This document shows positions 8,140-55,140 of a stretch of 64,000 nt of DNA, piece after piece. Position numbers and translations under genes: made by a program. Position 1 is the first letter of the stretch, and every line of letters begins with the position of its first letter. Under the pieces are notes generated by a model. It was not told the origin of the DNA. It saw only the letters and a program-made list of their open reading frames with translations, and searched no databases. Location of the stretch: positions 2,784,001 to 2,848,000 of the forward strand of contig CAVOJR010000001.1 in the NCBI GenBank assembly GCA_963696295.1. The letters are read 5' to 3'. Source of the DNA: an uncultured Chlamydiae bacterium. Its GTDB lineage: Bacteria; Chlamydiota; Chlamydiia; Chlamydiales; JAJFMB01.

Positions 8140-8374
8140 AGTCGTCCCTGAAAAAGTCCTTGCGATAAAAAAATGATCTTTTTATGAAAAATGCACTTTG
8201 TTCGTCGTCCAACCCTGCAGGGTTGAACTCCTCACAAATTGCATTTTTCATTTCAAAAATCTCTATTTTTTTCTTTCGCGAGTTCGGGCTCCTCCTCAAA
8301 AATTGCAAGGTTCATTCCATTCCCAGGGAAGTGCAATTTTTTTCCTCGGAGCCCTTACTTTTTCAGGCCCGACT
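8140..8374. mobile_element. MITE-like palindromic element, about 235 bp
   Basis: Terminal IRs agtcgtccctgaaaaagt (8140-8157) / actttttcaggcccgact (8357-8374), 16/18 match; two internal hairpins. Confidence 0.7.
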
Positions 8375-9841
8375 CAAGACACTTTTCTTTTCAGAAGCCA
8401 AAGTCAAACTGTAGGAGATGAGGAGGGCGAGAGCAAACCAGCTCCAGCGCACGCCTTTGAATTGATCCCAGGATTGAAATTCCTGCATCAAATTTCCAAG
8501 GAGGATGATCAAAAGCAGCAGCGGTGCAATGTAGCGCAGCGAAAAGCTGAAAAGAGGCATTTTTTTCCACACCTCATCGTTTTTGATTTTGGCGCTAAAA
8601 AAGTGAAAGGCCACTATCAAGGCTATCCCTCCGATTAACATATTCGTACCGATCACCATCGGAATCAGCGCATCCATTAAATAGGAGGCGTTACCCATGC
8701 AGAAGAAGGTGGAAAAGAGCGTGGTGATGATAAGGGTGATCACTACAGCACTTTTTCGGTTCGTGCGAAACTCTATCTCGACGTTTCCGACCGCGCTCTC
8801 AATGATTGAGAAAAAGCCCGTGATGCCAGCGATAAAGATGCAGAAGAAAAAGATCACGCCGATGAGAGGGGCCAGCAGGGGGCCGAAAAACTGTAAAAGC
8901 TGCGGGAATACGACAAAGCCGATCTCAAAAGTCGAGGCATCCGCCAGGATAAGATCGAAGGGGATGTTTTGCACATGGCAAACATGGGCGATGCATCCAA
9001 AAATGGCCGCTCCTGCGATAAAAGAGACAAAAAAGTCTCCTAGGACGACATATTTCATCGCTTTTACAATATCATGGGACTCACCGGTGTGGCGGGAATA
9101 GCCCACAATTATGCCAAGGCCAAGCGAGAGGCTGAAAAAAATCTGCCCGAATACGTCGCGCCACAAAGCGATATCGAGTAATTTCGAAAAGTCGGGCGTT
9201 AAATAGTAGGTCCAGCCTTGCAGGCCTCCCGGTAAAAAGGCGACAAAGACGGCAAAAATGACCATCAGGACAGCGAGTAGCGGCATAAAGAGGGAGCAAA
9301 ACTTTTCGATGCCGTCTTTGACATTGCGCACCAGGACAAAGCCGGTCACAACAGAAACTAGCGCAGTAGACAAAAATATGGGCCAGGAGAGGGAGCCGAA
9401 ATCACTTAGGCCCGAACTGGTTTTGAGGAGGGTTTCAGTAAAAAAGCTTTTGGTGTCGGCGGGAATGGCGCCGCTTGCTGAAAAAAAGATATAACAGACG
9501 GAATATCCGGTCAGCACGACATAAAAGGCTCCGATGGAGAGGCAGGCGATAACGGCGAGCCATCCCAGCACTTTGCCGATTTTGCCCCATACCAGGCCAT
9601 AAGCTGCGACGATGGGGGATTTCAAGCGGTCGCCGATAATTCCTTCGAGAACCAGAAAAGGAAAACCTAAGATAAATAGGGCGATGCAATAGGGGATTAA
9701 ATAGGCGCCGCCTCCATTTTTGTAGGCATGGGCGCTGAAACTCAATATATTGGCAAAACCGACAGCTGATCCAATTAAGGACCAGATAAAGCCCTTTTCG
9801 GAATTCCAAGTGGAATCCGGGGCTGCATTTGTTGATGACAT
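8363..9841 (-). CDS. Sodium-dependent transporter, NSS/SNF (LeuT-like) family
   Basis: IGSAVGFANILSF..AYKNGGGAYLIPY, QIFFSLSLGLG motifs; ATG 9841 with SD AAGGA. Confidence 0.9.
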   Translation of the reverse strand: MSSTNAAPDSTWNSEKGFIWSLIGSAVGFANILSFSAHAYKNGGGAYLIPYCIALFILGFPFLVLEGIIGDRLKSPIVAAYGLVWGKIGKVLGWLAVIACLSIGAFYVVLTGYSVCYIFFSASGAIPADTKSFFTETLLKTSSGLSDFGSLSWPIFLSTALVSVVTGFVLVRNVKDGIEKFCSLFMPLLAVLMVIFAVFVAFLPGGLQGWTYYLTPDFSKLLDIALWRDVFGQIFFSLSLGLGIIVGYSRHTGESHDIVKAMKYVVLGDFFVSFIAGAAIFGCIAHVCHVQNIPFDLILADASTFEIGFVVFPQLLQFFGPLLAPLIGVIFFFCIFIAGITGFFSIIESAVGNVEIEFRTNRKSAVVITLIITTLFSTFFCMGNASYLMDALIPMVIGTNMLIGGIALIVAFHFFSAKIKNDEVWKKMPLFSFSLRYIAPLLLLIILLGNLMQEFQSWDQFKGVRWSWFALALLISYSLTLASEKKSVLSRA

Positions 9842-9900
9842 ATGCAATCCTTTAATTTAAAAAATTTTTTAATGAGATTAGCCTTTAACTCCGATAGGAA

Positions 9901-9960
9901 TTAAAGGCGTCGAAGAGGCAGGAGAAGAGAAAGAAAGCTCTTAGAAATATGAGCGGTCAT
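9901..9960 (-). CDS. Putative Leu-rich leader peptide MTAHISKSFLSLLLPLRRL
   Basis: Read directly from the sequence: AGGA SD, 19 codons, 6 Leu in the last 10, stop inside the 12-bp hairpin 9881-9908. Confidence 0.6.
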   Translation of the reverse strand: MTAHISKSFLSLLLPLRRL

Positions 9961-10073
9961 GATATCCTGCTTTATTAATTTTAGCAAAATCATAGCTGAT
10001 CATTTGGTTTTTGTCTAGCGAAAAATCTGGGCAATGTGTATAAAATTAATGCATAAACTTACAGGGATGATCA

Positions 10074-11390
10074 ATGTTTCTCAATATCATCAACGAATTT
10101 CTTTCACTCTATGTTGTCGTGCCGCTTATTCTGTTTACCGGGATTTACCTTTCATGCCGCGTGGGTCTTATTCAAATATCCAAATTAAAAATGGGTTTCA
10201 GCTATCTGATAAACAGCGAGAGAAAAAGCGTGGGCAATATCTCTCACTTTGAAGCGATCTCGACCGTTTTGGCAGGGAATTTGGGCACCGGGAATATTTC
10301 CGGCATGGCTGTAGCGCTGACGACTGGGGGGCCCGGAGCGCTCGTCTGGATGGCTGTGATGGCCTTTTTGGGAGCGATTTTAAAATTCGCCGGCGTTTTT
10401 TTGGGAGTCAAGTTTCGCCACATCAACAAGGAAGGGGACTATGTCGGCGGCCCGATGTACTATCTCGACCATGGCCTTAACCTGAAACCGGTCGCCTGGA
10501 TCTTCTCGATATTCGCCATTCTGTGCGCCTTGACAGTGGGAAATTTGGTGCAGGTCAATTCGATCAGCCTGCCTATTGAAAAGATGGGCGCTTCCCCCCT
10601 TTTGATGAGTGTGATCACCGCTATTTTTGTCGCTATTGTATTGGTCGGGGGCATGCACCGATTCGCCATTGTCGCCTCGACAGTTGTGCCTTTGATGGCA
10701 GCGCTTTATGTGGGCGTCGCTCTCTATATCCTGTTTGTCTTCCGCGATCAGATCATGCCCTCTTTGGCATTGATCTTTGAAGCTGCGTTTGCCCTTCGCC
10801 CGGTAGCTGGAGGCATGCTGGGGTATGGCATTTTGAAGTCCATTACAGTCGGTTTTGAGCGGGGTGTGTTTTCTACTGACGCTGGTGTGGGGATCGCTCC
10901 CATATTGCAATCGAGCACGCGGACTAAGAGCCCGGTGGTAGAAGGCGTCGTTGCGATGGTCCCTCCTCTGGTGGTGATGGTAATCTGCACCATTACGACA
11001 TTGGTTTTAATGGTGACGGGAGCCTGGCAAGTCGAAGGTCTCCGCAGCACGAATATGTGCACTTATGCTTTTGAGCAGGGGATAGGAGAGAAATGGGGAA
11101 CCTATGTCGTTTTGATTTCGCTCATCCTTTTTGCCTATACCACCATCCTGGCCTGGGCTTATTGCGCCGAGAGAGCGGTGGAGTATTTGGGGGGATTGAA
11201 ATGGATGCATATTTTCCAGTGGTTTTTCATTTTTGTGATCCCTTTTGGAGCCTTGGTGCATGTGGATCTGGTCTGGAAGCTTGCCGATATCTGCATAGCG
11301 ATGATGCTCGTCTGCAATATGATCGGGGTGATCGGCTTATCGAAATTAGTTATTCAGGAAAGCCGCCTCTTTTTCTCTAAAGAAGAGTAA
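10074..11390 (+). CDS. Alanine/glycine:cation symporter (AGCS) family
   Basis: LAGNLGTGNISG, GGPGALVWM, GGPMYYL, RGVFSTDAGVG motifs. Confidence 0.92.
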   Translation: MFLNIINEFLSLYVVVPLILFTGIYLSCRVGLIQISKLKMGFSYLINSERKSVGNISHFEAISTVLAGNLGTGNISGMAVALTTGGPGALVWMAVMAFLGAILKFAGVFLGVKFRHINKEGDYVGGPMYYLDHGLNLKPVAWIFSIFAILCALTVGNLVQVNSISLPIEKMGASPLLMSVITAIFVAIVLVGGMHRFAIVASTVVPLMAALYVGVALYILFVFRDQIMPSLALIFEAAFALRPVAGGMLGYGILKSITVGFERGVFSTDAGVGIAPILQSSTRTKSPVVEGVVAMVPPLVVMVICTITTLVLMVTGAWQVEGLRSTNMCTYAFEQGIGEKWGTYVVLISLILFAYTTILAWAYCAERAVEYLGGLKWMHIFQWFFIFVIPFGALVHVDLVWKLADICIAMMLVCNMIGVIGLSKLVIQESRLFFSKEE

Positions 11391-11452
11391 TGTCTAATCC
11401 CATAAATCCGTTTACTTAATTTTGAGTGAATTCCGATTTATGGGATTAGACA
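11391..11452. repeat. 62-bp inverted-repeat element between convergent stop codons (mini-MITE or bidirectional terminator)
   Basis: Perfect 18-bp IR tgtctaatcccataaatc / gatttatgggattagaca, abutting TAA (11388-90) and the minus-strand TAG (11453-55). Confidence 0.75.
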
Positions 11453-12601
11453 CTATAGATCGAGGTACTTCATCACTCGCACTCCAATGCCGTTGATCAC
11501 GCTGCGCATAAAAAACCAGGGCAGACGGCGCGCCAATGGCAAATGGCGGGAATAAACCGCGGTGTACTCAATATCGCTCTCGGCCCGGCGCAGTTTTTTA
11601 TACTGCGAAGCCCCGGCGCTTTGATTCACTATCAGACCTTTATCTTTTGCCTCCAGCGTCAGCAAAGTGGAAATGATGCGATAGAGCCCCAAATCTTGCG
11701 GAAGACTTGTGTCGTAGCCGAAAATCGGCGAAGTGGCCACGCCGTTGCGCGCAAAGTACCCCATGACGGCGTCAATCTTACCATCCTTTCTTAAGGCTTT
11801 TACGTTGAGTATTTTATTTTTAACAGCTAACTCAATGAAGTTCAAATTCAGCTGGGGGGAATAGTGGGTGTATTTATTGATATAGAGGTCCCGGTAGAGT
11901 TCGAGAATGCGGCCGTAGTCCTCTTTGTTGATCTGTTCGTTATTGATCACCTCATACTGGCTGTTCTGATAGACTTTCAGATCGCTTTTAAACATGCGGG
12001 CTTTAAAAGGCTCCTCCTTTTTGGTGTCTAAAAAATAGACAGGGCGGCAGGCGATGAGGTCAAATTTATTTTGGCTGAGCGATTTGAAACAGGCCGGATT
12101 GTCGAATTGGGTGATCGATCGAAAGGCGATGGCATGATCCGGATATCGCTCTGTAAGCGCTTTCTGAATAGCCTGAATTTGCGATTCGCTCATTTTAGGG
12201 TAGAGATTAGTGGTAAAGAGCCAATTGTTCACAAAAATAATTTTATTGATTTTTCCCGTGCGGAAGGCCTTTTTAAACAGCCTTAAAAAACAGGAAGCCA
12301 CCATTTTTATCAGCGGATTTTTGATGCACTGCACCTTTTCAAATCCGCAGTTAATGTAGAGCGTATAGGGAGAGCAGACATAGGAATTCTCATACTCGGC
12401 GTTGTTAATGGTGGCAGGGAAGACGATATCATCGACTTTGATGACGATCATTTCCGTTTCGGTGTTATCGATATAATGGCGGGCGCCGTTTTTAATTAAA
12501 GGATACAGGTAATTTTTAGCATATTGTCCTTCTTCATTTTCGGGCCAATATAAGAAATCAATTGTCGATGAATTGTAAATCTGAATTTTATGCTGAGGCA
12601 T
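11453..12601 (-). CDS. GNAT-fold acetyltransferase-like protein
   Basis: NSYVCSPY, VNNWLFTTNLYP, LYINKYTHYSPQL, PIFGYDTSLPQDLGLYR, NQSAGASQYKKLR. Confidence 0.7.
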   Translation of the reverse strand: MPQHKIQIYNSSTIDFLYWPENEEGQYAKNYLYPLIKNGARHYIDNTETEMIVIKVDDIVFPATINNAEYENSYVCSPYTLYINCGFEKVQCIKNPLIKMVASCFLRLFKKAFRTGKINKIIFVNNWLFTTNLYPKMSESQIQAIQKALTERYPDHAIAFRSITQFDNPACFKSLSQNKFDLIACRPVYFLDTKKEEPFKARMFKSDLKVYQNSQYEVINNEQINKEDYGRILELYRDLYINKYTHYSPQLNLNFIELAVKNKILNVKALRKDGKIDAVMGYFARNGVATSPIFGYDTSLPQDLGLYRIISTLLTLEAKDKGLIVNQSAGASQYKKLRRAESDIEYTAVYSRHLPLARRLPWFFMRSVINGIGVRVMKYLDL

Positions 12602-12722
12602 ATTCTCCCTTCGTTAGGACTCTTAAGCAGGTGTTTAGCAGCTCCTGTTTGAAACGTAGCCACAAGAGCTGCCACCCTTCTTTAGTCATATAAGAACCTG
12701 AAGGGATTTATTCAAGAAAAAA

Positions 12723-14150
12723 TTAACCTTTTATTACAAGATGAGGTTTTAATTTCGCAACCATTCTGGCAAGTCCTGCTTGCTGGACGGCGTCGACGAC
12801 CTGATCGACATCTTTATACGCATCGGGCATTTCTTCGGCGATAGTGCGGTAAGAAGAGGCCATCACATGGACTCCTTGCTTTAGCATGTGTTCTTCGATA
12901 TTTTTCCCTTTCCATGAACGGAGCGATTCGTGGCGGCTGCGCGCGCGGCCCGCGCCATGGCAGGAGCTGCACCATGTCAAGGGGTTGCCCTGACCCACCA
13001 TAATGTGGCTGGAGCGGCCCATATCGCCGGGCACCATGACGGGCTGGCCGGTGGTTTGAAAAAGGGGTGAAAGCTCTTTTGCTCCCGGTCCAAAAGCGCG
13101 AGTAGCTCCTTTGCGGTGCACGCAGAGCTTTCTTCTTACGCCATCCACTTCATAGGTCTCAAATTTGGCGATATTGTGGCATACATCGTAGAGAAGGCGT
13201 ATATCTTCAGGATTCATTCCGAACACCTGCTGAAAACTCATCCGGATCTCATGCAGAATGCGCTGCCGGTTGTTGAATGCAAAATTAGCCGCTGCCGCCA
13301 TGGCCATAAAATAGCGCTGTCCCGCCTCGCTTTTGATCGGCGCTGCCATCAATTGTTTATCGGGCAATCCTTCGGCATACCCTTGCTTGACAAAGCTGTT
13401 CAAGGTGTCCTGGCAGACCTGATGGCCGAAGCCGCGCGATCCGGAATGGATCAGCAGGTACATCTGCCCTTTTTCAAGCCCCCAGGCATCGGCGATGTCG
13501 GGTAAATAGATTTGGCTGATTTCCCCGATTTCCACGAAATGGTTGCCCGAACCGATGGAGCCTAGCTGATCCGAGCCGCGCAATTTCGCCAAAGGGGATA
13601 CCACTTCGATATCGCCCCCTTCAATGAAGCCATTGCTTTCGATATGGTCAAGATCGGACGGGATGCCAAATCCATGCTCGATCGACCATCTGGCCCCTTT
13701 TTTGACCAGTTCCCGGTAGTCCTGATCGGTGAGTTTATGCTCTTTTTTTTGCCCTTTGCCTACCCCTGAAGGGACATTTCCGAAAACCGCAGCGAGCAGT
13801 TTGTTTTTTTCTTTTTCGGTGAATTCGGAAAATTGCTTTGGGACTAACGCCAGCCTGACGCCGCAGTTGATGTCGTAGCCTACCCCACCCGGGCTGATGA
13901 CTCCATGTTCCGCATCCATGGCGGCCACACCCCCGATCGGAAAACCGTAGCCCCAATGGATATCGGGCATGGCGATGCTGTAGTTGACGATGCCTTTGAG
14001 GAATGCGACATTGCGCACTTGCTGCAGAGGATGCTCCATATCCGTCGCCTGCAAAAGCTCGGGCGTGGCTATCACCAGGCCGGGAACGAGCATCCCTCCC
14101 TCTTTGGGGAGCTTATAGATGCCGGGCGATACGGGTTCTAAATTATACAT
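12723..14150 (-). CDS. rtcB: RtcB RNA ligase (long archaeal/eukaryote-like type)
   Basis: MPDIHWGYGFPIGGV, GYDINCG, GSGNHF, HSGSRGFG, HRKGAT, PGDMG, SSCHGAGR, EEMPDAYK. Confidence 0.97.
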   Translation of the reverse strand: MYNLEPVSPGIYKLPKEGGMLVPGLVIATPELLQATDMEHPLQQVRNVAFLKGIVNYSIAMPDIHWGYGFPIGGVAAMDAEHGVISPGGVGYDINCGVRLALVPKQFSEFTEKEKNKLLAAVFGNVPSGVGKGQKKEHKLTDQDYRELVKKGARWSIEHGFGIPSDLDHIESNGFIEGGDIEVVSPLAKLRGSDQLGSIGSGNHFVEIGEISQIYLPDIADAWGLEKGQMYLLIHSGSRGFGHQVCQDTLNSFVKQGYAEGLPDKQLMAAPIKSEAGQRYFMAMAAAANFAFNNRQRILHEIRMSFQQVFGMNPEDIRLLYDVCHNIAKFETYEVDGVRRKLCVHRKGATRAFGPGAKELSPLFQTTGQPVMVPGDMGRSSHIMVGQGNPLTWCSSCHGAGRARSRHESLRSWKGKNIEEHMLKQGVHVMASSYRTIAEEMPDAYKDVDQVVDAVQQAGLARMVAKLKPHLVIKG

Positions 14151-14360
14151 CGACGATCATCTCCCATTCTAATAATTCGTTTTCTTTGATGAGCTTGAAA
14201 GCTGATGGCCTTTGCCGCATTCGCTGTCCGCAAGACCGACGGGTTCTAAATTATACATCGACGATCATCTCCCATTCTAATAAATCGTTTTCTTTGATGA
14301 TATCCCCGTGGAAGCTGACGGCCTTATAGGGGCTGCCGCATTCGCTGTCCGCAAGACCGA
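14131..14360. repeat. Tandem duplication of the archease-stop/rtcB-start junction
   Basis: Copies 14131-14239 (with deletions) and 14239-14360; first 45 bp identical. Confidence 0.92.
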
Positions 14361-15060
14361 TGGCGTTGTTTAACTCGATAATGATTTCATTGAGGTCGTT
14401 TATCGCTGCATCAAGAGGGAAATATTTAAGCAGTTCAGGATAGTGAAAGGCAAGGGCCATGCAGGCATTCCAATACATCTCTTGCAGGGATTCGGACCGG
14501 ATGTGAAAAGCGAGGTCGGCTGTGTGGGGCAGCTCCTGAAAAGGGGGCAATAAGTTAAGCTGCCACAAGGAGTTGTATTTGGAATGACCCAGAGACTCAA
14601 ACAAATGCAGAGTGTCGGACTTAACCGGAAGGGGGTGAAAGGCTTTTTTCCACTGGGTTGCATCAAAGGGGCTGCGGCAAAGAGTGGCGTGGGGAATATA
14701 ATCCCGTTCGCTTTTTTTTTCTCCAAAGCCCCGGGCTATAAGCCACTCAACGGCCTCTTTTTGGTAGGACAGAAAAGCTTCCTGCTTTCTACCGAAATTC
14801 GCTCTCCAGGCCACGACATGGGGATGTCTTGGCGGAAAGGAGAGACAGGCGTCGAAGAATCCGGCGAGCCCCACTTTAAAGGGAGGGGGCGGGAAAGCGT
14901 CCAGTTGGGAAAGCAGCCCCTCTATTTCCTCATCGCCGATAAAGACAAAAGTGAAATGGCGGTGCGGTTCCTCGATGATCCTGCCTTCGGGCAATTTTTC
15001 CGGCCACGATGCTTCTGCGTTCATCCCGAAAAAAAGGCGTTTGATGTTTTTTTCACTCAT
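14251..15060 (-). CDS. Fusion of 2H phosphoesterase (ThpR-like RNA 2',3'-cyclic phosphodiesterase) and archease
   Basis: N-terminal RLFFG, HFTFVFIG, YIPHATL (two HxT motifs); C-terminal LPHTADL, KAVSFH, terminal IVDV archease motifs. Confidence 0.85.
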   Translation of the reverse strand: MSEKNIKRLFFGMNAEASWPEKLPEGRIIEEPHRHFTFVFIGDEEIEGLLSQLDAFPPPPFKVGLAGFFDACLSFPPRHPHVVAWRANFGRKQEAFLSYQKEAVEWLIARGFGEKKSERDYIPHATLCRSPFDATQWKKAFHPLPVKSDTLHLFESLGHSKYNSLWQLNLLPPFQELPHTADLAFHIRSESLQEMYWNACMALAFHYPELLKYFPLDAAINDLNEIIIELNNAIGLADSECGSPYKAVSFHGDIIKENDLLEWEMIVDV

Positions 15061-15147
15061 AATTGGAAATTGAAACACAGTAATGATTTTAAAAAAAGTC
15101 TCAAATTTGTTATATATTGTAGTTCTGTCATTTTAGGGAGGATAGAC

Positions 15148-15543
15148 ATGGATTTGAACTGGTTAGGAATTATCGCGGCCGCGGTTGCGAATATAATTGT
15201 GGGTGCGGTCTGGTATTCGCCCCAGGTATTTGGGACGGCCTGGATGTGCCATGCCAAAGCCGATGTCGATAAATGTAAAGATGCAGGAGCCAGATATGCC
15301 GGAGCTTTCATTATAGCGCTGGTTACGGCTGCGGTGTTGTCTGTCGCTATTTCCCATATGGGTAATCACACCTTTTTACAGGGCGCAAAGATCGGATTTT
15401 TGATGTGGCTTGGTTTTGTGGCCCCGACGCAGGCTTCCGGAGTCATTTGGGAAAGCAAGTGCTGGTCCCTCTTTTTGATTCACACCGGCTGCATGCTGGT
15501 GACGCTGATCCTGATGGGCGGCATCCTCGGCGCAATGTCGTAA
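15148..15543 (+). CDS. DUF1761 family membrane protein
   Basis: NWLGIIAAAV..GAVWYSPQVFGTAW; SD GGAGG before ATG 15148. Confidence 0.85.
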   Translation: MDLNWLGIIAAAVANIIVGAVWYSPQVFGTAWMCHAKADVDKCKDAGARYAGAFIIALVTAAVLSVAISHMGNHTFLQGAKIGFLMWLGFVAPTQASGVIWESKCWSLFLIHTGCMLVTLILMGGILGAMS

Positions 15544-15564
15544 TAGAAGCGAGCAGCTTAAGTT

Positions 15565-18487: not shown

Positions 18488-18570
18488 TTTTTGTAAAATT
18501 GATGCTTGCATAGAAATTGGTAAATCATTTATTTCATTCTAAATTATTTTAAATGTATAGGAGGTCCCAA

Positions 18571-46368: not shown

Positions 46369-46371
46369 TTA

Positions 46372-49038
46372 TTATAGCAGATCCCCGCCGCATTGCTGGA
46401 TCAGCTTGGCGACCAGCCCGGTCCATCCGGTCTGGTGGCTCGCTCCAAGGGCAGCTCCATTGTCTCCGTGAAAATACTCGTTGAATTGCAATAGATTGTG
46501 CCAATGAGGATCTTCGTGATAGAGGCGCTGGTTGCGGTAGATGGGACGTTTGCCCTCTTCATTCTTTAAAAATAGACGCGTCAGCCTCTTGGAAAGCTCT
46601 TTGGCCACATCCCAAAGGTTCAGCAGATTGCCCGAGCCTGTAGGGAACTCCACTTTGAGCGTGTCTCCGTAATAATGGTGATATTTTTGGAGCGATTCAA
46701 TGATGAGGAAGTTAATGGGGAACCAGACGGGCCCCCGCCAGTTGGAGTTGCCCCCAAAGAGCCCGGTTTGCGATTCGGCGGGTTCATAATTGATCGAATA
46801 GTCAATACCATGGGCCTGGAGGGAAAAGGGGTGGGCGGCATGATATTTCGACACGGATCTTAGACCAAACTCAGATAAGAATTCGTTTTCATCCAGCATG
46901 TAGCGGAGGACGCGCACCAGGCGGTCTTTTGGCAGCACGCCGATGATCCGCCTTTCCGCTTCACCGGGCTGAAGCGTGCAGGAAATATTATCTCTCACCT
47001 CAGGGTATTTGGAGAGGAACCATTTCATCCGGCGTCTAAAAACCATCATCGAGTCGAGATGATTCACTTCGACAGTTTCCACCGCGAGCAGGGGAAGCAA
47101 CCCGACCAAAGAGCGCACTTTTAAGGGAGTCACTTCCCCGCTCGGCAGGCTGAGGACGTCGTAAAAAAAGCCATCCTCTTCATTCCAAAGGGAAAGATTC
47201 TTGCCGACGCAATCGATCATGGCGTGGGAGATGCGCAAAAAGTGTTCGAAAAATTTGGTCGCCATATCCTGGTAGACGGAGTCTTTCTTGGCCAGCTCCA
47301 GGGAAATTTTGACCATCAGCATGCAGTAAAAGGACATCCAGGAGGTGGCGTCGGATTGATAAATTGTGCCTCCGGTCGGCAATTTTTTTGCGCTGCGGTC
47401 AAAGATGCTGATATTATCGAGCCCTAAAAATCCCCCTTCGAAGATGTTTTTGCCATCCTTGTCTTTGCGATTCACCCACCAGGTAAAGTTAAGCAGCAGT
47501 TTGTGGAATATGGTTTTAAGAAAAGCCAAATCCTCTTTTCCCCTCCGCTTGGCGTCGATTTGAAAGACGCGCCAGGCTGCCCAGGCGTGGACAGGGGGGT
47601 TGGCGTCGCTAAAATTCCATTCATAGGCCGGCAATTCCCCATTGGGGTGCAAATACCACTCTCTCGTCATCAAGACTAACTGTCTTTTCGCAAAATCGGT
47701 GTCGATCAAACTTAAAGGGAGGCAATGAAAGGCCAAATCCCAGCTGGCAAACCAGGGGTATTCCCATTTATCGGGCATGCAGATCACATCAAAGGCCGCC
47801 AGATGGTCCCAGCCGCTATTGCGTCCGGTGAGGTGGGACACAGGCGGCGGGGGGCGGTGTGGGTCTCCCTGCAGCCACTGTTTCACATCATAATAGTAAA
47901 GCTGCTTTGACCAGAGCATCCCTGCCAGGGCTTGCCGCTGCACATTTTTTTCTTCATCGTCAAGTTTTGGGTTTTGTACGGCCTGGTAAAATTCATCCGC
48001 TTCCTTTAGGCGCTTCTCGAAGATCTCATTAAAATTCTCAAAGGGATTATCCAGTTTGCCCTTGCATAAGCGGAGGTGGTATGTGACAGAGCCTTGAGGA
48101 TCAATGGAGGCCTGGTAATGGACCATCCCTTTGGTGCCGAATTGGTCGGGGTTGACCGCCCCTTTTTCCCCTTTGATGATATAGCGGTGAAACGCGTCTT
48201 TGACATGAGGAGTGAGATTTGGAGCTTTAAAGAGGCGCTCCCGGTCCGTTTCATTTTCCGTAAATGCCATTTCACCTGGGGTTTCGAAAAAAAGGTGATA
48301 TTTTCCAAGGGACGAGTGTTCGACATGGATAGCGTTGTTCTCGCGCCCTTTCCGCATCATCGGTCTCGTGGGCAGATCGATCAGAGGGCCGGTTGTCTGT
48401 CCCCAGCTCCAGGTGTTGCGGAACCAAAGCTGCGGGATGATATGCAGGTCGGCCTTTTCAGCAGAACGATTATGGATGGTCAGCTTGATCAGCATGTCCT
48501 CCAAGTCTGCTTTGGCATATTCGATGAAAACATCGAAGTATTTTTGGTTATCGAAAACCCCAGTGTCCATGAGTTCGTATTCCGGATCGAGTTTGGTCCG
48601 TTTTTTATTCTCTGCGACCAGCTGCTCGTAGGGAAATGGGCTGATTGGATATTTATAGAGCATTTTCATGTAGCTATGGGTAGGTGTCGAATCGAGGTAG
48701 TAGTAGTACTCTTTGACATCTTCTCCATGGTTGCCTTCATAGGGGCTTAAGCCGAAGATCCGTTCTTTTAGGATAGGATCTTTGCCGTTCCAAAGAGCCA
48801 GGGAAAAAAGGAGGTATTGGTCCCGGTCGCAAATCCCGCCTAAGCCGTCTTCGTTCCAGCGATAGGCCCGGCTTCGGGCATGATCATGGGGCAAGTAATT
48901 CCAGGCGTCGCCGTTTGGGCTATAATCCTCCCGCACCGTGCCCCAGGCGCGTTCGCTGACATAGGGGCCCCAATATTTCCAGTTGGCCCGTTGATTGTGA
49001 TACTGGTCAATTCGTTCCTGTTCAGCGCCTGTGGTCAT
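46372..49038 (-). CDS. MGH1-like glycoside hydrolase (GH63-related glucosidase)
   Basis: WGPYVSERAWGTVREDYS, MPDKWEYPWFASWDLAFH, NSNWRGPVWFP, GASHQTGWT. Confidence 0.9.
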   Translation of the reverse strand: MTTGAEQERIDQYHNQRANWKYWGPYVSERAWGTVREDYSPNGDAWNYLPHDHARSRAYRWNEDGLGGICDRDQYLLFSLALWNGKDPILKERIFGLSPYEGNHGEDVKEYYYYLDSTPTHSYMKMLYKYPISPFPYEQLVAENKKRTKLDPEYELMDTGVFDNQKYFDVFIEYAKADLEDMLIKLTIHNRSAEKADLHIIPQLWFRNTWSWGQTTGPLIDLPTRPMMRKGRENNAIHVEHSSLGKYHLFFETPGEMAFTENETDRERLFKAPNLTPHVKDAFHRYIIKGEKGAVNPDQFGTKGMVHYQASIDPQGSVTYHLRLCKGKLDNPFENFNEIFEKRLKEADEFYQAVQNPKLDDEEKNVQRQALAGMLWSKQLYYYDVKQWLQGDPHRPPPPVSHLTGRNSGWDHLAAFDVICMPDKWEYPWFASWDLAFHCLPLSLIDTDFAKRQLVLMTREWYLHPNGELPAYEWNFSDANPPVHAWAAWRVFQIDAKRRGKEDLAFLKTIFHKLLLNFTWWVNRKDKDGKNIFEGGFLGLDNISIFDRSAKKLPTGGTIYQSDATSWMSFYCMLMVKISLELAKKDSVYQDMATKFFEHFLRISHAMIDCVGKNLSLWNEEDGFFYDVLSLPSGEVTPLKVRSLVGLLPLLAVETVEVNHLDSMMVFRRRMKWFLSKYPEVRDNISCTLQPGEAERRIIGVLPKDRLVRVLRYMLDENEFLSEFGLRSVSKYHAAHPFSLQAHGIDYSINYEPAESQTGLFGGNSNWRGPVWFPINFLIIESLQKYHHYYGDTLKVEFPTGSGNLLNLWDVAKELSKRLTRLFLKNEEGKRPIYRNQRLYHEDPHWHNLLQFNEYFHGDNGAALGASHQTGWTGLVAKLIQQCGGDLL

Positions 49039-49177
49039 ATTTTCTCCTTAGTTGCTACACTAATCGGGAATAAAACTATTGTAAACAAAAATGTTTAAAC
49101 TGCAGAGGATATTTCCTTGCTCTTATTTTCTTCATTCGGTTATAAGAGTTTTTCACACATTTAAAAAAGACATTTCT

Positions 49178-50245
49178 ATGCAGCTCTATGACCCCCTCTC
49201 TCTTTTACAACTGCTGGTTACAGCCAGAGGCCCTTGCGGACAGGAAACGGAAATCCGTTCGGTCTGTTCGCAGTTGATGAAGCCGATTTGCGACCAGTTG
49301 TGGGAAGACCCCTCGGGCAACCTCATCGGCAAAATCGAAGGCAAGGATCCCAAGCGGCCAGCTATCCGTGTAATGGTCCATATGGATGAACTTTCGATGA
49401 TTGTCAAAAGGGTCAATAGCGACGGGTCTCTTGCGGTCACCTCTCTTGGCGCGCTGCACCCTTTCAATTGCGGGCAGGGTCTGGTAGAGATCATGGGCGA
49501 TAGAGCCAGAATACACGGCATCTTGTCGTTTGGCTGCATGCATGTGACCAAAGAAAGTGCTCACATAAAAAAATTTGTCTCAAAAGCATCCGACGGGAAA
49601 AATGAGACTATCGAATGGGAAGATACCTTTGTCGTCACCCGCAAAAGTGTGGAGCAGCTCAAAGCTTTAGGGGTGCATCCAGGTACTCGCGTGATACTGG
49701 CTCAATCGCGGCGGGAGCTGCAGCCTGTTGAAGATTGTGTGGCGGGATATTTTATGGATAACCGCGCTGCCATCGCCGCAGCCTTTGTCTGTTTTAACCA
49801 TTTCAAAGCCTACAAGCAGAAGCCTGCCGGCGATGTCTACCTGGTAGCCTCGGTTGCCGAAGAGATCGGAGGGCAGGGCGCCTGCTACGCCTCAAACAAG
49901 CTGCCGGGGGATATTACGGTCGCCATCGATGTGGGTCCGGTGGCAAAAGAGTACCAGACCGAACTCAACGCTTCTCCCATTATCGTTTATAAAGACCGGG
50001 TGACCGTCTATGATAAGGCCATTTGCGATAAGCTGACGGAGTTGGCCTATGATATCGGATTGGAGCCGCAGCAAGCTATTTTTGGAACTTACTCCTCAGA
50101 TGCCTCCCACCCCAAGGCGTATGGATTGACAGGTAGAGCGGCTCTGCTCGCCATCCCTACCGAAAATACTCATGGCTATGAAATTATACACCGGGATGCG
50201 ATCAATCAATGCGCCGAACTGCTCTATTCTTACCTGTTACAGTAA
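49178..50245 (+). CDS. M42 family metallopeptidase
   Basis: HMDE, MDNR, AEEIG, DVG, THGYEI. Confidence 0.88.
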   Translation: MQLYDPLSLLQLLVTARGPCGQETEIRSVCSQLMKPICDQLWEDPSGNLIGKIEGKDPKRPAIRVMVHMDELSMIVKRVNSDGSLAVTSLGALHPFNCGQGLVEIMGDRARIHGILSFGCMHVTKESAHIKKFVSKASDGKNETIEWEDTFVVTRKSVEQLKALGVHPGTRVILAQSRRELQPVEDCVAGYFMDNRAAIAAAFVCFNHFKAYKQKPAGDVYLVASVAEEIGGQGACYASNKLPGDITVAIDVGPVAKEYQTELNASPIIVYKDRVTVYDKAICDKLTELAYDIGLEPQQAIFGTYSSDASHPKAYGLTGRAALLAIPTENTHGYEIIHRDAINQCAELLYSYLLQ

Positions 50246-51402
50246 GGCATTATCTCGTCTACATCCTTCTTAGAGCCGTCTCCTATCCCCTCTCCTTTCT
50301 GCCCTTCTCCCTGCTGCAAAAGATAGGCAGGGGTCTAGGCTTTCTCGGCTATCACGCCTTTACCAAATACCGGAAACGCGCCTTAAGCAACCTAGCGCTG
50401 GCCAAAAAGCTGAATTTGACCCAGGCAGAGCGGGAAAAAGTGGCTATCCAAGCTTTTCAGAACTTGATGATGACGATGATGGAGCTCGCCCGTCTTTTGT
50501 GGCGGCCTCAAGATTTTTCCGCTCTGGCCACCTGTGAAAAAGGGGAAGTTTTCGAGGAGCCCAAAAAGCTTGGCAAAGGCGTGGTTCTCCTCTCCGCCCA
50601 CCAGGCCAATTGGGAAATTGGCGTTTTCGATCTTTTGCCCGGTTCAACAGGCGTGACGATCGGCCGCCCTTTGGCTAACCGGTTTCTTTACAGCTGGATC
50701 TTAAAAATGAGGGAACGGAACGGCAATCAGGTGGTTCCGCCTCAAAACGGCCTCCAGACGGGTATTGCCGCCTTAAATGAGGGAAAGTTTTTCGCTCTCT
50801 TTGGCGATCAGGCAAAAGTAACAAGCGACTATCACGCCCCTTTTTTGGGCAGCCGGGCCTGGACTTCGCAATCTCCGGCTATTTTGGCTTATAAAACAGG
50901 CTCTCCCTTATGCGTGATAGCTAAAAAAAGGGTGGGAGCGAAACATCTGCATACTTATTCCTCCCTGATTTGGCCCGACCGGGCGAAGCCTTGGAAAGAG
51001 GAGGTGAAGCGGATGATGGATGAGGCTTTGAGTTTAGTCGAGGAGAGCATAAAGGCCGCTCCCGGGGAGTGGCTGTGGCAGCACCGGAGATGGAAGCAGG
51101 GTATGGCTCTTGTGAAGAAAAAATACCGGCACGATTTTATTCTGCTTGTCTTTCCTGTGAAACCGGTAGACTTAAGAGAGCTGGAAGTCATATACCCCAG
51201 GGCTTTTTTTACGGCTATGGTGCCTGACGCCGGTATCCAGCTGCCAGCCCATTGGAAAAAGATTGTTTATCAGACGGAAAAAGAACTTTTTATTGAAGAC
51301 TGGAGCTTTCAGCTGGTTATCGATTTTTTGGGAGTGAAAGGGCTGAAGGAGCATTATTTATCGCTTGGCGCTTTTGAGGTAATCAATCATATTCCTAATT
51401 GA
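50209..51402 (+). CDS. htrB: Lipid A lauroyl/acyltransferase (HtrB/LpxL family) with C-terminal extension
   Basis: HQANWE, FGDQ, PGEWLWQHRRWK. Confidence 0.8.
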   Translation: MRRTALFLPVTVRHYLVYILLRAVSYPLSFLPFSLLQKIGRGLGFLGYHAFTKYRKRALSNLALAKKLNLTQAEREKVAIQAFQNLMMTMMELARLLWRPQDFSALATCEKGEVFEEPKKLGKGVVLLSAHQANWEIGVFDLLPGSTGVTIGRPLANRFLYSWILKMRERNGNQVVPPQNGLQTGIAALNEGKFFALFGDQAKVTSDYHAPFLGSRAWTSQSPAILAYKTGSPLCVIAKKRVGAKHLHTYSSLIWPDRAKPWKEEVKRMMDEALSLVEESIKAAPGEWLWQHRRWKQGMALVKKKYRHDFILLVFPVKPVDLRELEVIYPRAFFTAMVPDAGIQLPAHWKKIVYQTEKELFIEDWSFQLVIDFLGVKGLKEHYLSLGAFEVINHIPN

Positions 51403-51411
51403 ATTTATATT

Positions 51412-51565
51412 CAATGGTATCAACTTAAGGAAATTGATGAGGTGCTACGAACGCCGATCTGGCTTGCTTTGCTCCTCGTAAATAGCCAAGGCTATTCACT
51501 CGTCACAAATCAATCCATCTCGCCATTCTCGCCACCCCCTAAATTCCCTTAAGTTGATACCATTG
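51412..51565. mobile_element. 154-bp MITE, IS4/IS231-like ends, copy 1
   Basis: 19-bp perfect TIR caatggtatcaacttaagg; flanked by 10-bp direct repeat aatttatatt. Confidence 0.85.
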
Positions 51566-51575
51566 AATTTATATT

Positions 51576-51729
51576 CAATGGTATCAACTTAAGGAAATTG
51601 ATGAGGTGCTACGAACGCTGATCTGGCTTGCTTTGCTCCTCGTAAATAGCCAAGGCTATTCACTCGTCACAAATCAATCCATCTCGCCATTCTCGCCACC
51701 CCCTAAATTCCCTTAAGTTGATACCATTG
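51576..51729. mobile_element. 154-bp MITE, copy 2 (tandem)
   Basis: One C/T difference from copy 1; aatttatatt at 51402, 51566, 51730. Confidence 0.85.
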
Positions 51730-51781
51730 AATTTATATTTATTCTCTGGTAAAATTCCTTTTGTAGTAATTACTGGAAAAA

Positions 51782-52663
51782 ATGATGCTTTCTAAATTTC
51801 TAGATCCTAAAAATGATTTTGCATTCAAAAAAATCTTTGGCACCGAGAAAAATAAGGATATTCTTATTCACTTTCTCAACGATATGATTACCTTTAAAAA
51901 AAAGGAACCGATTAAGGAAGTTACTTTTTTGAAGCCTGTGCAAGACCCAGAAACTGCTGCGAAAAAGACAAGCATCGTCGATATTTTATGCAAGGATGAG
52001 AAAGGGAACACTTATATTGTCGAGATGCAAGTAGCTAAGGAAAAAGGATTTGAGAAGAGAGCGCAATATTACGCTTCCAAAGCCTATATTTCTCAAGCCA
52101 ATTCCGGCGGAAAATATCACGATCTTCAGGAAATCGTTTTTTTAGCCATCTCTGATTTTATCATGTTTCCCAATAAGAAAGCCTATAAATCGGATCATGT
52201 CATTCTGGACAAAGAGACGCATGAAAATGATTTAAAGGATTTTTCCTTTACTTTTTTAGAGCTTCCCAAGTTCCATAAAGATGTTGAACATCTTTCTAAT
52301 ATGACTGAAAAGTGGGCCTATTTTTTCAAACATGCTGCAGAGACTTCAGAAGGGGAACTGCCGCGGCTGATCGGACAGGATGAAATTATGGAAAGAGCTT
52401 ATGAGCAACTCAATCAGCTTACTTGGAGCGAGGCAGAGCTTTTGACTTATCAACAAGCTGAGAAATATGAAAAAGCCTATATAGCATCCATGGATCAAAA
52501 ATTTGATGAAGGCAAACTCCTGGGAGAAAAACTGGGATTAGAGAAAGGGGAAAAATCAGCTCAATTGAAGATTGCTAAAAACTTGCTTACGCAAGGGATC
52601 GAAATTCAAACGATCAGGGCTGCGACTGGTTTGTCTGAAAATGAAATTAAGTTACTCAAGTGA
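51782..52663 (+). CDS. Rpn family recombination-promoting nuclease / PD-(D/E)XK putative transposase
   Basis: FLDPKNDFAFKKIFG, VDILC, YIVEMQ, FLELPKF, C-terminal GxxxG repeats and IAKNLL..TGLS. Confidence 0.92.
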   Translation: MMLSKFLDPKNDFAFKKIFGTEKNKDILIHFLNDMITFKKKEPIKEVTFLKPVQDPETAAKKTSIVDILCKDEKGNTYIVEMQVAKEKGFEKRAQYYASKAYISQANSGGKYHDLQEIVFLAISDFIMFPNKKAYKSDHVILDKETHENDLKDFSFTFLELPKFHKDVEHLSNMTEKWAYFFKHAAETSEGELPRLIGQDEIMERAYEQLNQLTWSEAELLTYQQAEKYEKAYIASMDQKFDEGKLLGEKLGLEKGEKSAQLKIAKNLLTQGIEIQTIRAATGLSENEIKLLK

Positions 52664-52668
52664 AATTC

Positions 52669-53388
52669 ATGAAAAAAGGACGCTTGATCATGGGCAAGCA
52701 CTGTATCGACGAGGTGCTCAAATGCGCCCCCGAAAGAGTGCAGATCGTCTATACTTCAAAAGAAAACCGGGAAGATCCCTTATTGCAAAGGGCGGCCAAA
52801 GCAAAGATCCCCATCAAATTCGTATCCAAGAGCGAACTTACTTCGCTGGTGCAATCCGATTCCCACCAATCGTTTATCGCCGAAGTGAATGAGAAGGCCA
52901 GCCGCTCGCTTGCCGAGTTTTTGGAAGACGAGGAAGGGAAAGCGGTACTTGCCCTCGACAACATCAACGACCCCCACAATTTAGGTTCGATATTAAGGGC
53001 TGCGGAGTGCTTCGGGATTGATGCGGTGACCTTTTCCAAAAATCGGGGAGCCGATATCACAGCCGTGGTGAGCAAGACGAGTGTCGGGGGGAGCGAGCTC
53101 GTCGAGGTATTGAAAGTCTCTAATCTGGCCGAAACAGTAAAAAAATTTAAGGAATATCACTATACCGTTATCGCCGCCGATGTTTCCCCTGACGCAGTAT
53201 CCCTGTACGATTTTGTTTTTCCCGAAAAATTTTTGCTGATCCTGGGGTCGGAGGGAGAGGGGATCCAAAAGCTCATCATGCGCTATGTCGACAAGAGGGT
53301 GTATATCCCAATGAACGGGCACATCGACTCTTTGAATGTCTCGCAAGCAACGGCGGTCTTTTTATCGAGGTGGAGATCCTTAAAATAA
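52669..53388 (+). CDS. rlmB: 23S rRNA Gm2251 methyltransferase (SPOUT/TrmH family)
   Basis: LDNINDPHNLGSILR, ILGSEGEG, IPM.G.IDSLNVS. Confidence 0.85.
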   Translation: MKKGRLIMGKHCIDEVLKCAPERVQIVYTSKENREDPLLQRAAKAKIPIKFVSKSELTSLVQSDSHQSFIAEVNEKASRSLAEFLEDEEGKAVLALDNINDPHNLGSILRAAECFGIDAVTFSKNRGADITAVVSKTSVGGSELVEVLKVSNLAETVKKFKEYHYTVIAADVSPDAVSLYDFVFPEKFLLILGSEGEGIQKLIMRYVDKRVYIPMNGHIDSLNVSQATAVFLSRWRSLK

Positions 53389-53724
53389 ATGGAAGCCTTT
53401 GTTCTGTTCATATGCAATAGTCTGGCGATTTACTCGGCCCTCTATCTTCTTCCGGGGGTGCAAGTCGACAGTTATATGACGGCCATCATGGCGTCAGTTT
53501 CTCTTGGGTTGATCAGCAGTTTTCTCCACCCTATCCTCATCCTGTTCTCCCTACCCACCACGATCATCAGCACAGGGCTTTTTACCTTGGCGGTCATGCC
53601 CATTATTGTCTGGATCGCCTCGCTAATTATGCCCGGTTTTGTTCTGGACGGATTTCTATGGGCTGTCGTTTTTGGACTTATACTGGCTATTATTAACAGC
53701 TTCATTCAGTCCCTGGAACTTTGA
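53389..53724 (+). CDS. YvlD-like membrane protein (phage holin family 4.2)
   Basis: 4 TM helices; PGVQVD, PILILFSLP..STGLF, PGFVLDGF. Confidence 0.8.
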   Translation: MEAFVLFICNSLAIYSALYLLPGVQVDSYMTAIMASVSLGLISSFLHPILILFSLPTTIISTGLFTLAVMPIIVWIASLIMPGFVLDGFLWAVVFGLILAIINSFIQSLEL

Positions 53725-53924
53725 ACAGAAAATGGGTGGTCATTTTTGGACTGATACTGGCTAACCGCTTCATTCAGTCTCTGGAACTTAAGTTCTGGAC
53801 GGATTTCTATGGGTTGTCATTTTTGGACTGATACTGGCTAACCGCTTCATTCAGTCCCTGGAACTTAAGTTCTGGACGGATTTCTATGGGTGGTCAGCTT
53901 CATTCAGTACCTGGAACTTTGAAC
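53641..53924. repeat. Four diverged copies of the yvlD/dsbB convergent junction
   Basis: Copies at 53641-53726, 53732-53789, 53792-53866, 53869-53924 share gcttcattcagt..ctggaactt. Confidence 0.93.
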
Positions 53925-54309
53925 TGACAGCCAGCAAAATCATCATCATCAGAAAGGCGAGGGCCGATAGGGCCGATATGGTGACAGGCCCAAGGCCGAT
54001 GTCGGGTTTTTCGCTGCAGCTGGGGCCGGCGCCGCACATCTCAATAGGATTTAATCCCGTTTCCTGCAGGATTATTTGATAGGCCGCCAGGAGAAAACCA
54101 ATGACGGTGAGAGGAATGACATAGAGCGCAATCCCATTAAAATTGCGATAGGTGGCTATCCCCAGAATCAGGCTTAAGGGGAACATGCAGACCCGCTGGT
54201 ACCAGCAGAGGTGGCAGGGTTCCAGATGCATCGCTTCGCTAAAAATTAGGCTGCCCATAGTGCCCACACAGGCGATGAGCCAGGCGAAATAAAGGCTGTA
54301 GTATTTCAT
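53884..54309 (-). CDS. dsbB: Disulfide bond formation protein B (DsbB/BdbC)
   Basis: EPCHLCWYQR, second Cys pair CGAGPSC. Confidence 0.92.
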   Translation of the reverse strand: MKYYSLYFAWLIACVGTMGSLIFSEAMHLEPCHLCWYQRVCMFPLSLILGIATYRNFNGIALYVIPLTVIGFLLAAYQIILQETGLNPIEMCGAGPSCSEKPDIGLGPVTISALSALAFLMMMILLAVSSKFQVLNEADHP

Positions 54310-54971
54310 GGATTAGCTCCCGTTTGGCTCAATGCGGCGTCGATCAACTTGCTCACACTTTGAAGTGAGACATCATCCGACTTCATTCCATTGACATAAA
54401 GAGTCGGCGTGATTAAGCGGCCCATGATTTGGGTGCCATAAAGCGTGTTTTTCTCAATTTGGGCGCGAAACTCCTCTTTTTCCATACAGCTCTTCAATTT
54501 TGCGATGTCGATAGACGGGCTAGCCGATTTGGCCATTTTTAGAAGCGTCTCAGGGGTTGCCGGAGTCACACTGTTGTACAGAGTGTCGAGAAAGGAGAAA
54601 AAAAGCTGGGCGTTTGGGTAATTGATGTCTTGCAGATAAACGCAAATCAGCGCAGCGGCGGCTGGCATGGAACCCGAAATAAAAGAAACGGGTATCGCCG
54701 TAAAGGTGATCTGGCGGGTGTCGATATATTTTTCCTTGATTTTTGGAAACACCTGAAGGGTAAATCTTTTGCAATGGGGGCATTTAAGTTCTTCAAAAAC
54801 CACCACATGCACTTTAGCCTCCGGATTGCCGATTGTGGGTTGGCCTGTAAGATCGATGTTAGTTTTTGAGGGCAAATGGCGTTGAGCCATAAAAAAGGCA
54901 AAGCCGGAAACTACCGCGAGCGTCATCAGGGTAAACCAAAATAACTTGTGTCCTTCTTTTTGGTCCGGCAT
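54306..54971 (-). CDS. dsbA: DsbA/BdbD-like thiol:disulfide oxidoreductase
   Basis: N-terminal TM, PTIGNPEA, CPHC, TPTLYVNG; adjacent to dsbB. Confidence 0.88.
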   Translation of the reverse strand: MPDQKEGHKLFWFTLMTLAVVSGFAFFMAQRHLPSKTNIDLTGQPTIGNPEAKVHVVVFEELKCPHCKRFTLQVFPKIKEKYIDTRQITFTAIPVSFISGSMPAAAALICVYLQDINYPNAQLFFSFLDTLYNSVTPATPETLLKMAKSASPSIDIAKLKSCMEKEEFRAQIEKNTLYGTQIMGRLITPTLYVNGMKSDDVSLQSVSKLIDAALSQTGANP

Positions 54972-54993
54972 GACCAATCTCCTTGTAAGTTTT

Positions 54994-55140
54994 GGCTACT
55001 GGTTTAATTTCGTCCAGTGGTATTGGCGAAATCCCGAATTTTGCTCGTCGTCCATAGCTAGCGCTATGAACTCCTCACAATCTTCGGGATTTCTTGGTCT
55101 CGCTCCGATATACCAAGTGGACGAAAATAAACCAATAGCC
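54994..55140. mobile_element. 147-bp MITE with IS1595-like ends
   Basis: TIR ggctactggtttaatttcgtcca vs complement of tggacgaaaataaaccaatagcc, 21/23; 8-bp TSD taagtttt at 54986-93 and 55141-48. Confidence 0.85.

What the first reader, a model, noticed from the sequence alone, without database searches (positions are those of the whole stretch)
8197..55080. One strand-specific 32-nt hairpin with a double tandem G.A loop is carried by three MITEs with unrelated ends
Seen: 8202-8233 TCGTC-GT-C-CAACCC-tgca-GGGTTG-A-AC-TCCTC; 55045-55076 TCGTC-GT-C-CATAGC-tagc-GCTATG-A-AC-TCCTC; 51473-51504 (and its tandem copy) TCCTC-GT-A-AATAGC-caag-GCTATT-C-AC-TCGTC. All sit in TTG(C/T)...ACAA and all have exactly 22 nt between the pentamers. 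On the plus strand the pentamers are pyrimidine mismatches. On the minus strand they form GA/AG, one Watson-Crick pair, GA/AG, and the C.A mismatch becomes a G.U/G.T wobble, giving a 9-bp stem with a tetraloop. The central pair covaries (G-C vs C-G), the wobble flips, and the 6-bp stem changes while keeping its pairing. The three host elements have different TIRs and target duplications (IS231-like 10 bp, IS1595-like 8 bp, third unclear). Established: tandem sheared G.A pairs are stable in both RNA and ssDNA and are often protein-recognition sites; similar TCGTCG...CTCCTC cores occur in some REP/RPE-type repeats. Inference: a selected structural module (protein-binding RNA tag, nuclease/HUH recognition site or mobility enhancer) spread by several transposase families.
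Basis: partly seen in the sequence, partly recalled or inferred. Interest (0 to 1): 0.88.

Follow-up and report, generated by a model that had tools for sequence, protein, structure and literature searches.

The report
Shared folded core of mini-transposons
Tiny gene-less jumping DNA elements that use different transposases share one conserved hairpin centre that folds on one strand only and usually lies on the same strand relative to DNA replication, which points to an undescribed single-stranded-DNA step in how they spread or survive.

Summary
Observation confirmed. The 32-nt hairpin is the apex of a larger (~105-nt), inherited, rod-shaped interior at the centre of ~155-160-bp type II MITEs. 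It occurs in at least five end-types in this genome, in other Chlamydiota, and as 43 distinct cores in metagenomes. The GA-S-GA/GA-S-GA loop is kept while helices covary (central pair complementary in 41 of 43 cores, though not required). One interior is 89% identical between elements with unrelated ends, so ends are exchanged around an inherited core. The G.A strand lies on the C-rich (lagging) strand in 35/43 loci here, 70-74/101 in a second genome and 53/72 other loci, with no sense bias; a further set showed no bias (13/26). This favours folding as single-stranded DNA at forks over an RNA tag. No Rfam or Ssn-motif match; one ERIC has only a single tandem G.A. 'IS1595-like' is unsupported: a related family's likely partner is a DUF6399 transposase. 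The scan noted shared MITE cores on other DNA before (three notes), but no orientation bias in my look-ups. Function is inferred, not shown.

The parts
8140..8374 (-). Family A MITE copy (235 bp, longer two-armed form); 16-20-bp inverted ends; 26 blast clusters in this genome, 3 of them cross-hits to family B cores, most others decayed
   Evidence: target duplication unclear (short TA/CTAG-type target suspected from flanks)
8202..8233 (-). Core hairpin of family A: double tandem G.A loop, 9-pair stem, tetraloop
8293..8347 (-). Second arm of family A with a GAGGA/GAGGA 5x5 purine loop (central G.G) on the same strand
51402..51411 (.). 10-bp target duplication, left copy (repeated at 51566-51575 and 51730-51739)
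51412..51565 (-). Family C MITE, copy 1 (154 bp)
   Evidence: this tandem pair is the only family C locus in the genome
51473..51504 (-). Core hairpin of family C copy 1 (central C-G, G.T wobble)
51576..51729 (-). Family C MITE, copy 2 (tandem, shares the duplication)
51637..51668 (-). Core hairpin of family C copy 2
54986..54993 (.). 8-bp target duplication, left copy (right copy 55141-55148)
54994..55140 (-). Family B MITE (147 bp, internally shortened; full form 160 bp); 25 loci in this genome
55045..55076 (-). Core hairpin of family B

Best explanation
These are non-autonomous type II MITEs built from two separable parts: transposase-specific inverted ends, which are replaced from time to time, and an inherited ~105-nt interior whose one strand folds into a rod capped by a double tandem G.A loop. 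SHOWN: ends and target duplications of several kinds around one homologous interior; covarying helices with fixed purine loops on one strand; near-constant length with the core centred; scattered insertion with no common neighbour gene; an excess of copies with the G.A strand on the C-rich (lagging-sequence, leading-template) strand, independent of gene direction. INFERRED: the rod forms in single-stranded DNA exposed at replication forks and is kept because it serves the element, not the host. Fold-back brings the two ends of a DNA too short to loop easily together, whatever the transposase, and the G.A loops keep that strand stably stacked while the DNA stays an imperfect palindrome. The strand excess arises because copies whose G.A strand is the lagging-strand template fold and are excised or lost more often, or because insertion at the fork is oriented. 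New end-types arise by nested insertion into other IS elements followed by deletion. No protein partner is identified.
For: Covariation: 88.5% of cells paired against 65.5% shuffled and 29-43% slid; 17 of 18 pairs with double changes; central pair complementary in 119 of 122 matches and 41 of 43 distinct cores although the pattern did not require it. Arm motifs on the G.A strand in 16 and 17 of 34 thinned elements against 1 and 2 on the other strand. End exchange. Length 143-164 bp, median 158, in the 37 of 74 elements with an 8-10-bp duplication. Orientation: 35/43 (p=4e-5; family A 14/17, B 20/25) with genes only 52% leading; 70/101 by local skew, 74/101 by a global split, sense 31/69; 56/74 among zero-difference copies; 53/72 and 50/72 other loci, while target preference predicts 52%. 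rRNA operons and rplB lie on the G-rich strand in 6 of 6 cases. Hairpins form on the lagging-strand template and are cut by SbcCD (PMC3315005 passages). Tandem sheared G.A pairs stack stably in DNA hairpins (PMC10085684 passages). A core-bearing MITE nested in an ISAs1-like element.
Against: No bias in 26 further loci from other chlamydial genomes (13/26 and 12/26; 3-kb skew signs are right only 79% and 69% of the time, and several are weak model hits); GC-rich loci show no clear sign. Orientation bias is known for some IS families through the transpososome and sliding clamp (PMC3971601 passages), so it need not come from the core. Bias is as strong in identical copies as in one-difference copies (76% and 73%), which does not show gradual loss. 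PMC3315005 says lagging-template cleavage was detected only with artificial palindromes longer than natural ones. Shortened family B copies without the apex exist and could be mobile. Loops do not discriminate cleanly: 10 of 39 are cGNNAg, 33 of 39 end in A, 2 are GNRA. The alignment was seeded by a pattern that fixed part of the stem, and related sequences inflate shuffle tests. The one IS end found abutting a core points the wrong way to make a new end.
Confidence: 0.5

Rival explanations
1. RNA-level module: the G.A strand is transcribed and its loop binds a host protein or sets RNase cleavage, so that insertions are tolerated or regulate neighbours, as proposed for ERIC and Correia elements.
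For: G.U-type wobbles are frequent on the G.A strand; RNA folding energies favour that strand by 13-29 kcal/mol; MITE transcripts are reported to be RNase E/III substrates (PMC3049150 and PMC2229807 passages).
Against: No preference for the transcribed strand (31/69; 8 sense, 15 antisense in this genome, following the replichore in both gene classes); no GNRA/UUCG enrichment; no Rfam match.
Confidence: 0.2
2. By-product: the interior is simply inherited, arms are homogenised by template switching, stable G.A mismatches escape correction, and the strand excess comes from the transposases or from deletion bias alone.
For: Interiors are homologous; template switching in imperfect palindromes can mimic covariation (established knowledge, recalled); IS orientation biases exist without any core; most copies here are decayed.
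Against: The loop sequence and spacing stay fixed while neighbouring pairs take all four Watson-Crick forms and arms fall to 10-17 of 32 identity; the central pair flips as a pair; length and centring are held across end-types; the same strand is favoured in families with different ends.
Confidence: 0.18
3. The core is itself the target of a single-strand nuclease or HUH transposase (Ssn, RAYT or IS200/IS605 type) and is spread or processed by it; DDE ends are passengers.
For: Strand-specific hairpins are what these enzymes read (PMC11893778, PMC5027513 passages); this genome has two Y1 transposase genes and a short GIY-YIG frame.
Against: 0 of 81 elements match the SRM motif; no such gene among 84 flanking frames; 80 of 100 G255 copies have an exact 8-bp duplication, a DDE signature; the folded strand is mostly not on the lagging-strand template, opposite to IS608.
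Confidence: 0.1

Closest known systems
Type II bacterial MITEs (Correia/NEMIS, RUP, Nezha, Chunjie, QMITE; reviews PMC10969869, PMC3184786, PMC2229807)
   Same: Under 250 bp, inverted ends matching an IS, target duplications, no transposase, long stem-loop, interior unrelated to the partner IS.
   Different: One homologous, structurally constrained interior is shared across unrelated end-types, with fixed length and a replication-strand excess. The passages and sections I read treat interiors as family-specific or decayed and mention neither point.
ERIC/IRU of enterobacteria
   Same: The copy between aceF and lpd has a purine-rich strand with a central stem, tetraloop and one tandem G.A closed by G.T; 9 of 13 K-12 copies have that strand on the lagging-sequence strand (p=0.27; origin and terminus positions recalled).
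   Different: Single, not double, tandem G.A; model R1 gives no hit in that locus at E<=10; about 127 bp with TA ends (review table and recall).
Rickettsia palindromic elements (RPE)
   Same: Palindromic 100-170-bp repeats of intracellular bacteria; the G255 element plus duplication is 168 bp with open frames on both strands and one in-frame insertion in a transposase gene.
   Different: Sequence relation not tested (no RPE sequence fetched); families C and D are not a multiple of three; most copies are intergenic.
REP/REPIN-RAYT, IS200/IS605 ends and Ssn-related motifs
   Same: Strand-specific hairpins thought or shown to act as single-stranded DNA.
   Different: DDE-type ends and duplications, no linked HUH or Ssn gene, no SRM match, opposite strand to IS608's lagging-template preference.
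ISL3/IS256-like DUF6399 insertion sequence (found here in G255)
   Same: Shares 22-23-bp ends and the 8-bp duplication with the G255 MITE; Atlas neighbours carry DUF6399, ISL3 and mutator domains.
   Different: The IS shows no core; no homologue was found in this genome with this query.

Membership tests
Type II MITE | Short (<500 bp), no transposase gene | tested here: met
   147-235 bp in the window
Type II MITE | Terminal inverted repeats | tested here: met
   Families A, B, C; 74 of 80 metagenome matches with enough flank
Type II MITE | Target site duplication | tested here: met
   10 bp (C), 8 bp (B), 8 bp in 80 of 100 G255 copies; unclear for family A
Type II MITE | Ends shared with an autonomous IS, interior not | tested here: inconclusive
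   Met for the G255 family; no partner found in this genome for A, B or C
Type II MITE | Mobilised in trans by that transposase | not testable with these tools
   Needs a transposition assay
IS1595-derived MITE (family B) | IS1595 transposase with matching ends | tested here: not met
   PF12762 in 0 of 5 genomes; a family with similar GGC ends and 8-bp duplication matches a DUF6399 IS instead
IS231-derived MITE (family C) | IS231/IS4 transposase with matching ends; 10-11-bp duplication | tested here: inconclusive
   10-bp duplication met; end likeness is recalled; no matching IS found
Rfam RNA family | Covariance-model match | tested here: not met
   0 in the window at gathering score; in 20 loci only a tRNA and sub-threshold hits
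Ssn-related motif (SRM/NTS) | Degenerate SRM sequence and linked ssnA | tested here: not met
   0 of 81 elements; no GIY-YIG among 84 flanking frames
ERIC/IRU | ERIC core and TA ends | tested here: not met
   One ERIC examined: single tandem G.A, no R1 hit; shares architecture only
RPE | Sequence homology to RPE-1..8 and in-frame insertion in genes | tested here: inconclusive
   No RPE sequence compared; one frame overlapping family A had no NCBIfam hit; 1 of 4 strictly in-gene G255 insertions kept an open frame
REP/REPIN | Linked RAYT and no DDE-type duplication | tested here: not met

The most novel reading that the evidence does not exclude
The core is a transposase-independent cis-acting adapter: a fold-back single-stranded DNA module that lets a ~158-bp element be synapsed or copied at the replication fork by any DDE transposase whose ends it captures, possibly through an unknown host protein that reads double tandem G.A loops. 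Many bacterial MITEs (perhaps including ERIC and RPE) would then be one ancient superfamily defined by the interior, not decayed offspring of individual IS elements.
Probability: 0.22. Interest if true: 0.88.

Novelty: new variant of a known kind. Interest (0 to 1): 0.66.

Why it matters
MITEs are usually described as IS remnants whose interior is dispensable. Here the interior is the conserved, inherited part and the ends are interchangeable, and its folded strand has a preferred position relative to the replication fork. That turns an old open question, why bacterial MITEs are whole-length imperfect palindromes of about 150 bp, into a direct test: change the loop or flip the element and measure transposition, excision and orientation. 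It also ties a DUF6399 protein to an insertion sequence with defined ends and an 8-bp duplication, giving a candidate enzyme and substrate pair for that test.

Tried and rejected
Strict 40-nt pattern: 2 of 401 Chlamydiota genomes and 2 loci in the species collection, one a stemless Streptococcus match, so the exact form is narrow. Viral collection: 56 and 19 loci, judged by eye to be chance coding matches without the stem. Two-mismatch pattern: 33 of 401 genomes, most single chance hits at about the control rate; 8 other genomes had real stems. Model R1: 9 of 61 chlamydial genomes, 0 of 23 in the small-genome family f4; 0 of 41 genomes in the phylum of the Streptococcus record. Plasmid searches with two whole elements and two ends gave nothing informative. 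Long TIR-bounded elements: one real IS in about half of the G255 chromosome, none convincing in this genome. No common neighbour gene. No RNA holder was listed. Intact versus broken cores by orientation: 9/9 against 26/34, p=0.17. Short G255 derivatives did not show the reverse orientation (8 against 5, 3 ambiguous). DNA-type tetraloop idea: only 10 of 39 loops fit cGNNAg (class named in a reference title); not used as evidence. Rows dropped before the alignment: L210 and L255 (stemless coding matches); 64 cores thinned to 39.
Full report
Observation. A pattern for the two pentamers gives 4 matches in the window against 0.05 expected. The genome (3.30-Mb chromosome, 135-kb second contig; ATP/ADP translocase and other genes fit an environmental chlamydia) holds 12 exact copies at 22-nt spacing and one at 23; hairpins of this kind at other spacings are almost absent, and a broader search gave 20 hairpins against 3 for a control motif. 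The purine strand folds more stably than its complement in 5 of 5 elements.

Host elements. Family C (154 bp, 10-bp duplication, tandem pair) and family B (147-160 bp, 8-bp duplication) are clear MITEs; family A (235 bp here) has inverted ends but no clear duplication. Their ends share 3-10 of 22 bases. Two more end-types carry the core in this genome, at C1:2186903-2187060 and C1:750050-750218.

Distribution. The exact 40-nt form is narrow (2 of 401 Chlamydiota; 2 loci in the species collection, one stemless). With two mismatches, 33 of 401 genomes ring, most by chance, but 8 other genomes show intact stems, one (G255) with 110 matches. A metagenome scan that fixed only the loop and five stem pairs gave 117 loci, 122 matches and 43 distinct cores. 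In 74 of 80 matches with enough flank the core sits at the centre of an inverted-repeat element, with many different ends; the 37 with an 8-10-bp duplication measure 143-164 bp, median 158 (automatic ends can be off). Some host contigs have 59-71% G+C and weak or no likeness to this genome, so hosts outside Chlamydiota are likely but were not identified. A covariance model rang in 9 of 61 chlamydial genomes and 0 of 41 genomes of another phylum.

Structure. After dropping two stemless matches and thinning 64 cores to 39, 88.5% of cells pair against 65.5% in shuffles and 29-43% in slid controls, and 17 of 18 pairs show double changes. The informative columns are those the pattern left free: the central pair is complementary in 119 of 122 matches and 41 of 43 distinct cores; the second inner pair takes all four Watson-Crick forms; the third is always G-containing (G.G 12, C-G 10, G.T 9, T.G 8); the outer stem covaries and often has a G.A or A.G at one position. 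Relatedness inflates these tests. Further out, two purine-rich arm motifs occur in 16 and 17 of 34 thinned elements on the G.A strand against 1 and 2 on the other. More distant chlamydial hits keep the outer loop while the inner stem length varies.

Ends are exchanged. Family B and an element of G319 share 27/32, 38/40 and 28/32 bases in arms and core but only 7/22 and 10/22 at the ends; family B and the fourth family in this genome share 22/32, 33/42, 23/32 against 5/22 and 6/22. For the G255 family I found a likely partner: a 1.88-kb IS with matching ends and an 8-bp duplication that encodes a 559-aa DUF6399 protein and shows no core; Atlas neighbours carry ISL3 and mutator transposase domains. 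No IS1595 transposase rang in 5 genomes and the DUF6399 query found nothing in this genome. One G255 copy is nested in an ISAs1-like element, the first step of a route to new ends; an IS end abutting another core points the wrong way for that. None of 84 flanking frames reveals a common partner gene.

Orientation. In this genome the G.A strand lies on the C-rich strand at 35 of 43 loci (p=4e-5; A 14/17, B 20/25), whether neighbouring genes are leading (13 of 14), lagging (7 of 9) or convergent/divergent (15 of 20); crude gene calls are 52% leading. In G255 it is 70 of 101 by local skew and 74 of 101 by a global split chosen after seeing the data, with 31 of 69 sense (100 of 116 matches were listed). 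Identical copies give 56 of 74. Other loci give 53 and 50 of 72; target preference predicts 52%; many of those loci come from a few hosts. rRNA operons and rplB confirm that G-rich means leading (6 of 6). Against generality: 26 further loci gave 13 and 12 of 26. Thirteen E. coli ERIC copies gave 9 (not significant). The folded strand is thus depleted from the lagging-strand template, the reverse of IS608 (PMC5027513, passages), and the direction expected if folding there leads to excision or loss (PMC3315005, passages, which also notes that such cleavage was seen only with longer artificial palindromes). IS orientation biases are known and can come from the transpososome (PMC3971601, passages; the word MITE does not occur in it).

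Mechanism. I commit, at 0.5, to a single-stranded DNA role that serves the element: fold-back juxtaposes the ends of a DNA near the persistence length (established knowledge), tandem G.A pairs keep one strand stacked (PMC10085684, passages) while the duplex stays an imperfect palindrome, and the fork decides which strand folds. The structure, end exchange and strand excess are shown; folding in vivo, the benefit and any binding protein are inferred. Rivals: RNA-level module 0.2, by-product 0.18, single-strand nuclease or HUH target 0.1.

Comparison with what is known. They meet the testable marks of type II MITEs. Rfam gave nothing; the Ssn motif matched 0 of 81 elements (PMC11893778, passages). 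One ERIC has a single tandem G.A and no model hit. RPE sequences were not compared. In ten paper searches and in three reviews (PMC3184786 passages; PMC10969869 part 1 of 6 and passages; PMC2229807 part 1 of 3) plus passages of PMC3116915 and PMC3049150, I saw no statement of a core shared across end-types or of its strand excess; DUF6399 occurred in no paper. The library lacks most subscription papers, the original RPE and CGTC-repeat papers did not appear, ISfinder was not available and no supplements were read, so prior description is not excluded. Three earlier notes of this scan report shared MITE cores in other genomes; they are unchecked leads, and my look-ups found none on orientation or on this sequence.

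Verdict. Interest 0.66.

Noticed in passing
L337:2162-4044 (G255:C1:1035800-1037682): Complete 1.88-kb insertion sequence with 8-bp duplication encoding a 559-aa DUF6399 protein with a DDE-like pattern, itself inserted in another transposase gene; ties DUF6399 to an ISL3/IS256-like IS. No paper in the library holds the term.
   Followed up: partly
window 51782-52663: Rpn-family PD-(D/E)XK nuclease/putative transposase starts 52 bp after the family C tandem pair; no such linkage at other loci.
   Followed up: partly
L305:17796-17975 (G255:C1:2417796-2417975): Decayed core-bearing MITE whose right end is replaced by a DUF6399 IS end facing the core; an intact copy of that family is at L317:15217-15373.
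   Followed up: yes
L102:1899-2058: G255 MITE inserted in frame (168 bp) in an ISAs1-like transposase gene, which stays open.
   Followed up: partly
G255 MITE target sites: The 8-bp target is asymmetric, A-rich on the G.A strand with C first and G last.
   Followed up: partly
G000:C1:238564, 649060, 3072360: Three 91-bp family B forms lacking the apex, possibly recurrent deletions between short repeats in the two arms.
   Followed up: no
G000:C1:1704878-1705201, 393854-394137, window 51412-51729: Head-to-tail tandem MITE pairs sharing one target duplication recur in families B and C.
   Followed up: no
G000:C1:3236759: Unrelated long hairpin with a GAAGA/GATGA 5x5 loop and 15-bp outer stem.
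   Followed up: no
L404, L089: Two core-bearing elements lie directly beside what looks like a tRNA gene.
   Followed up: no
window 12723-14150: RtcB RNA ligase gene in a chlamydial genome.
   Followed up: no
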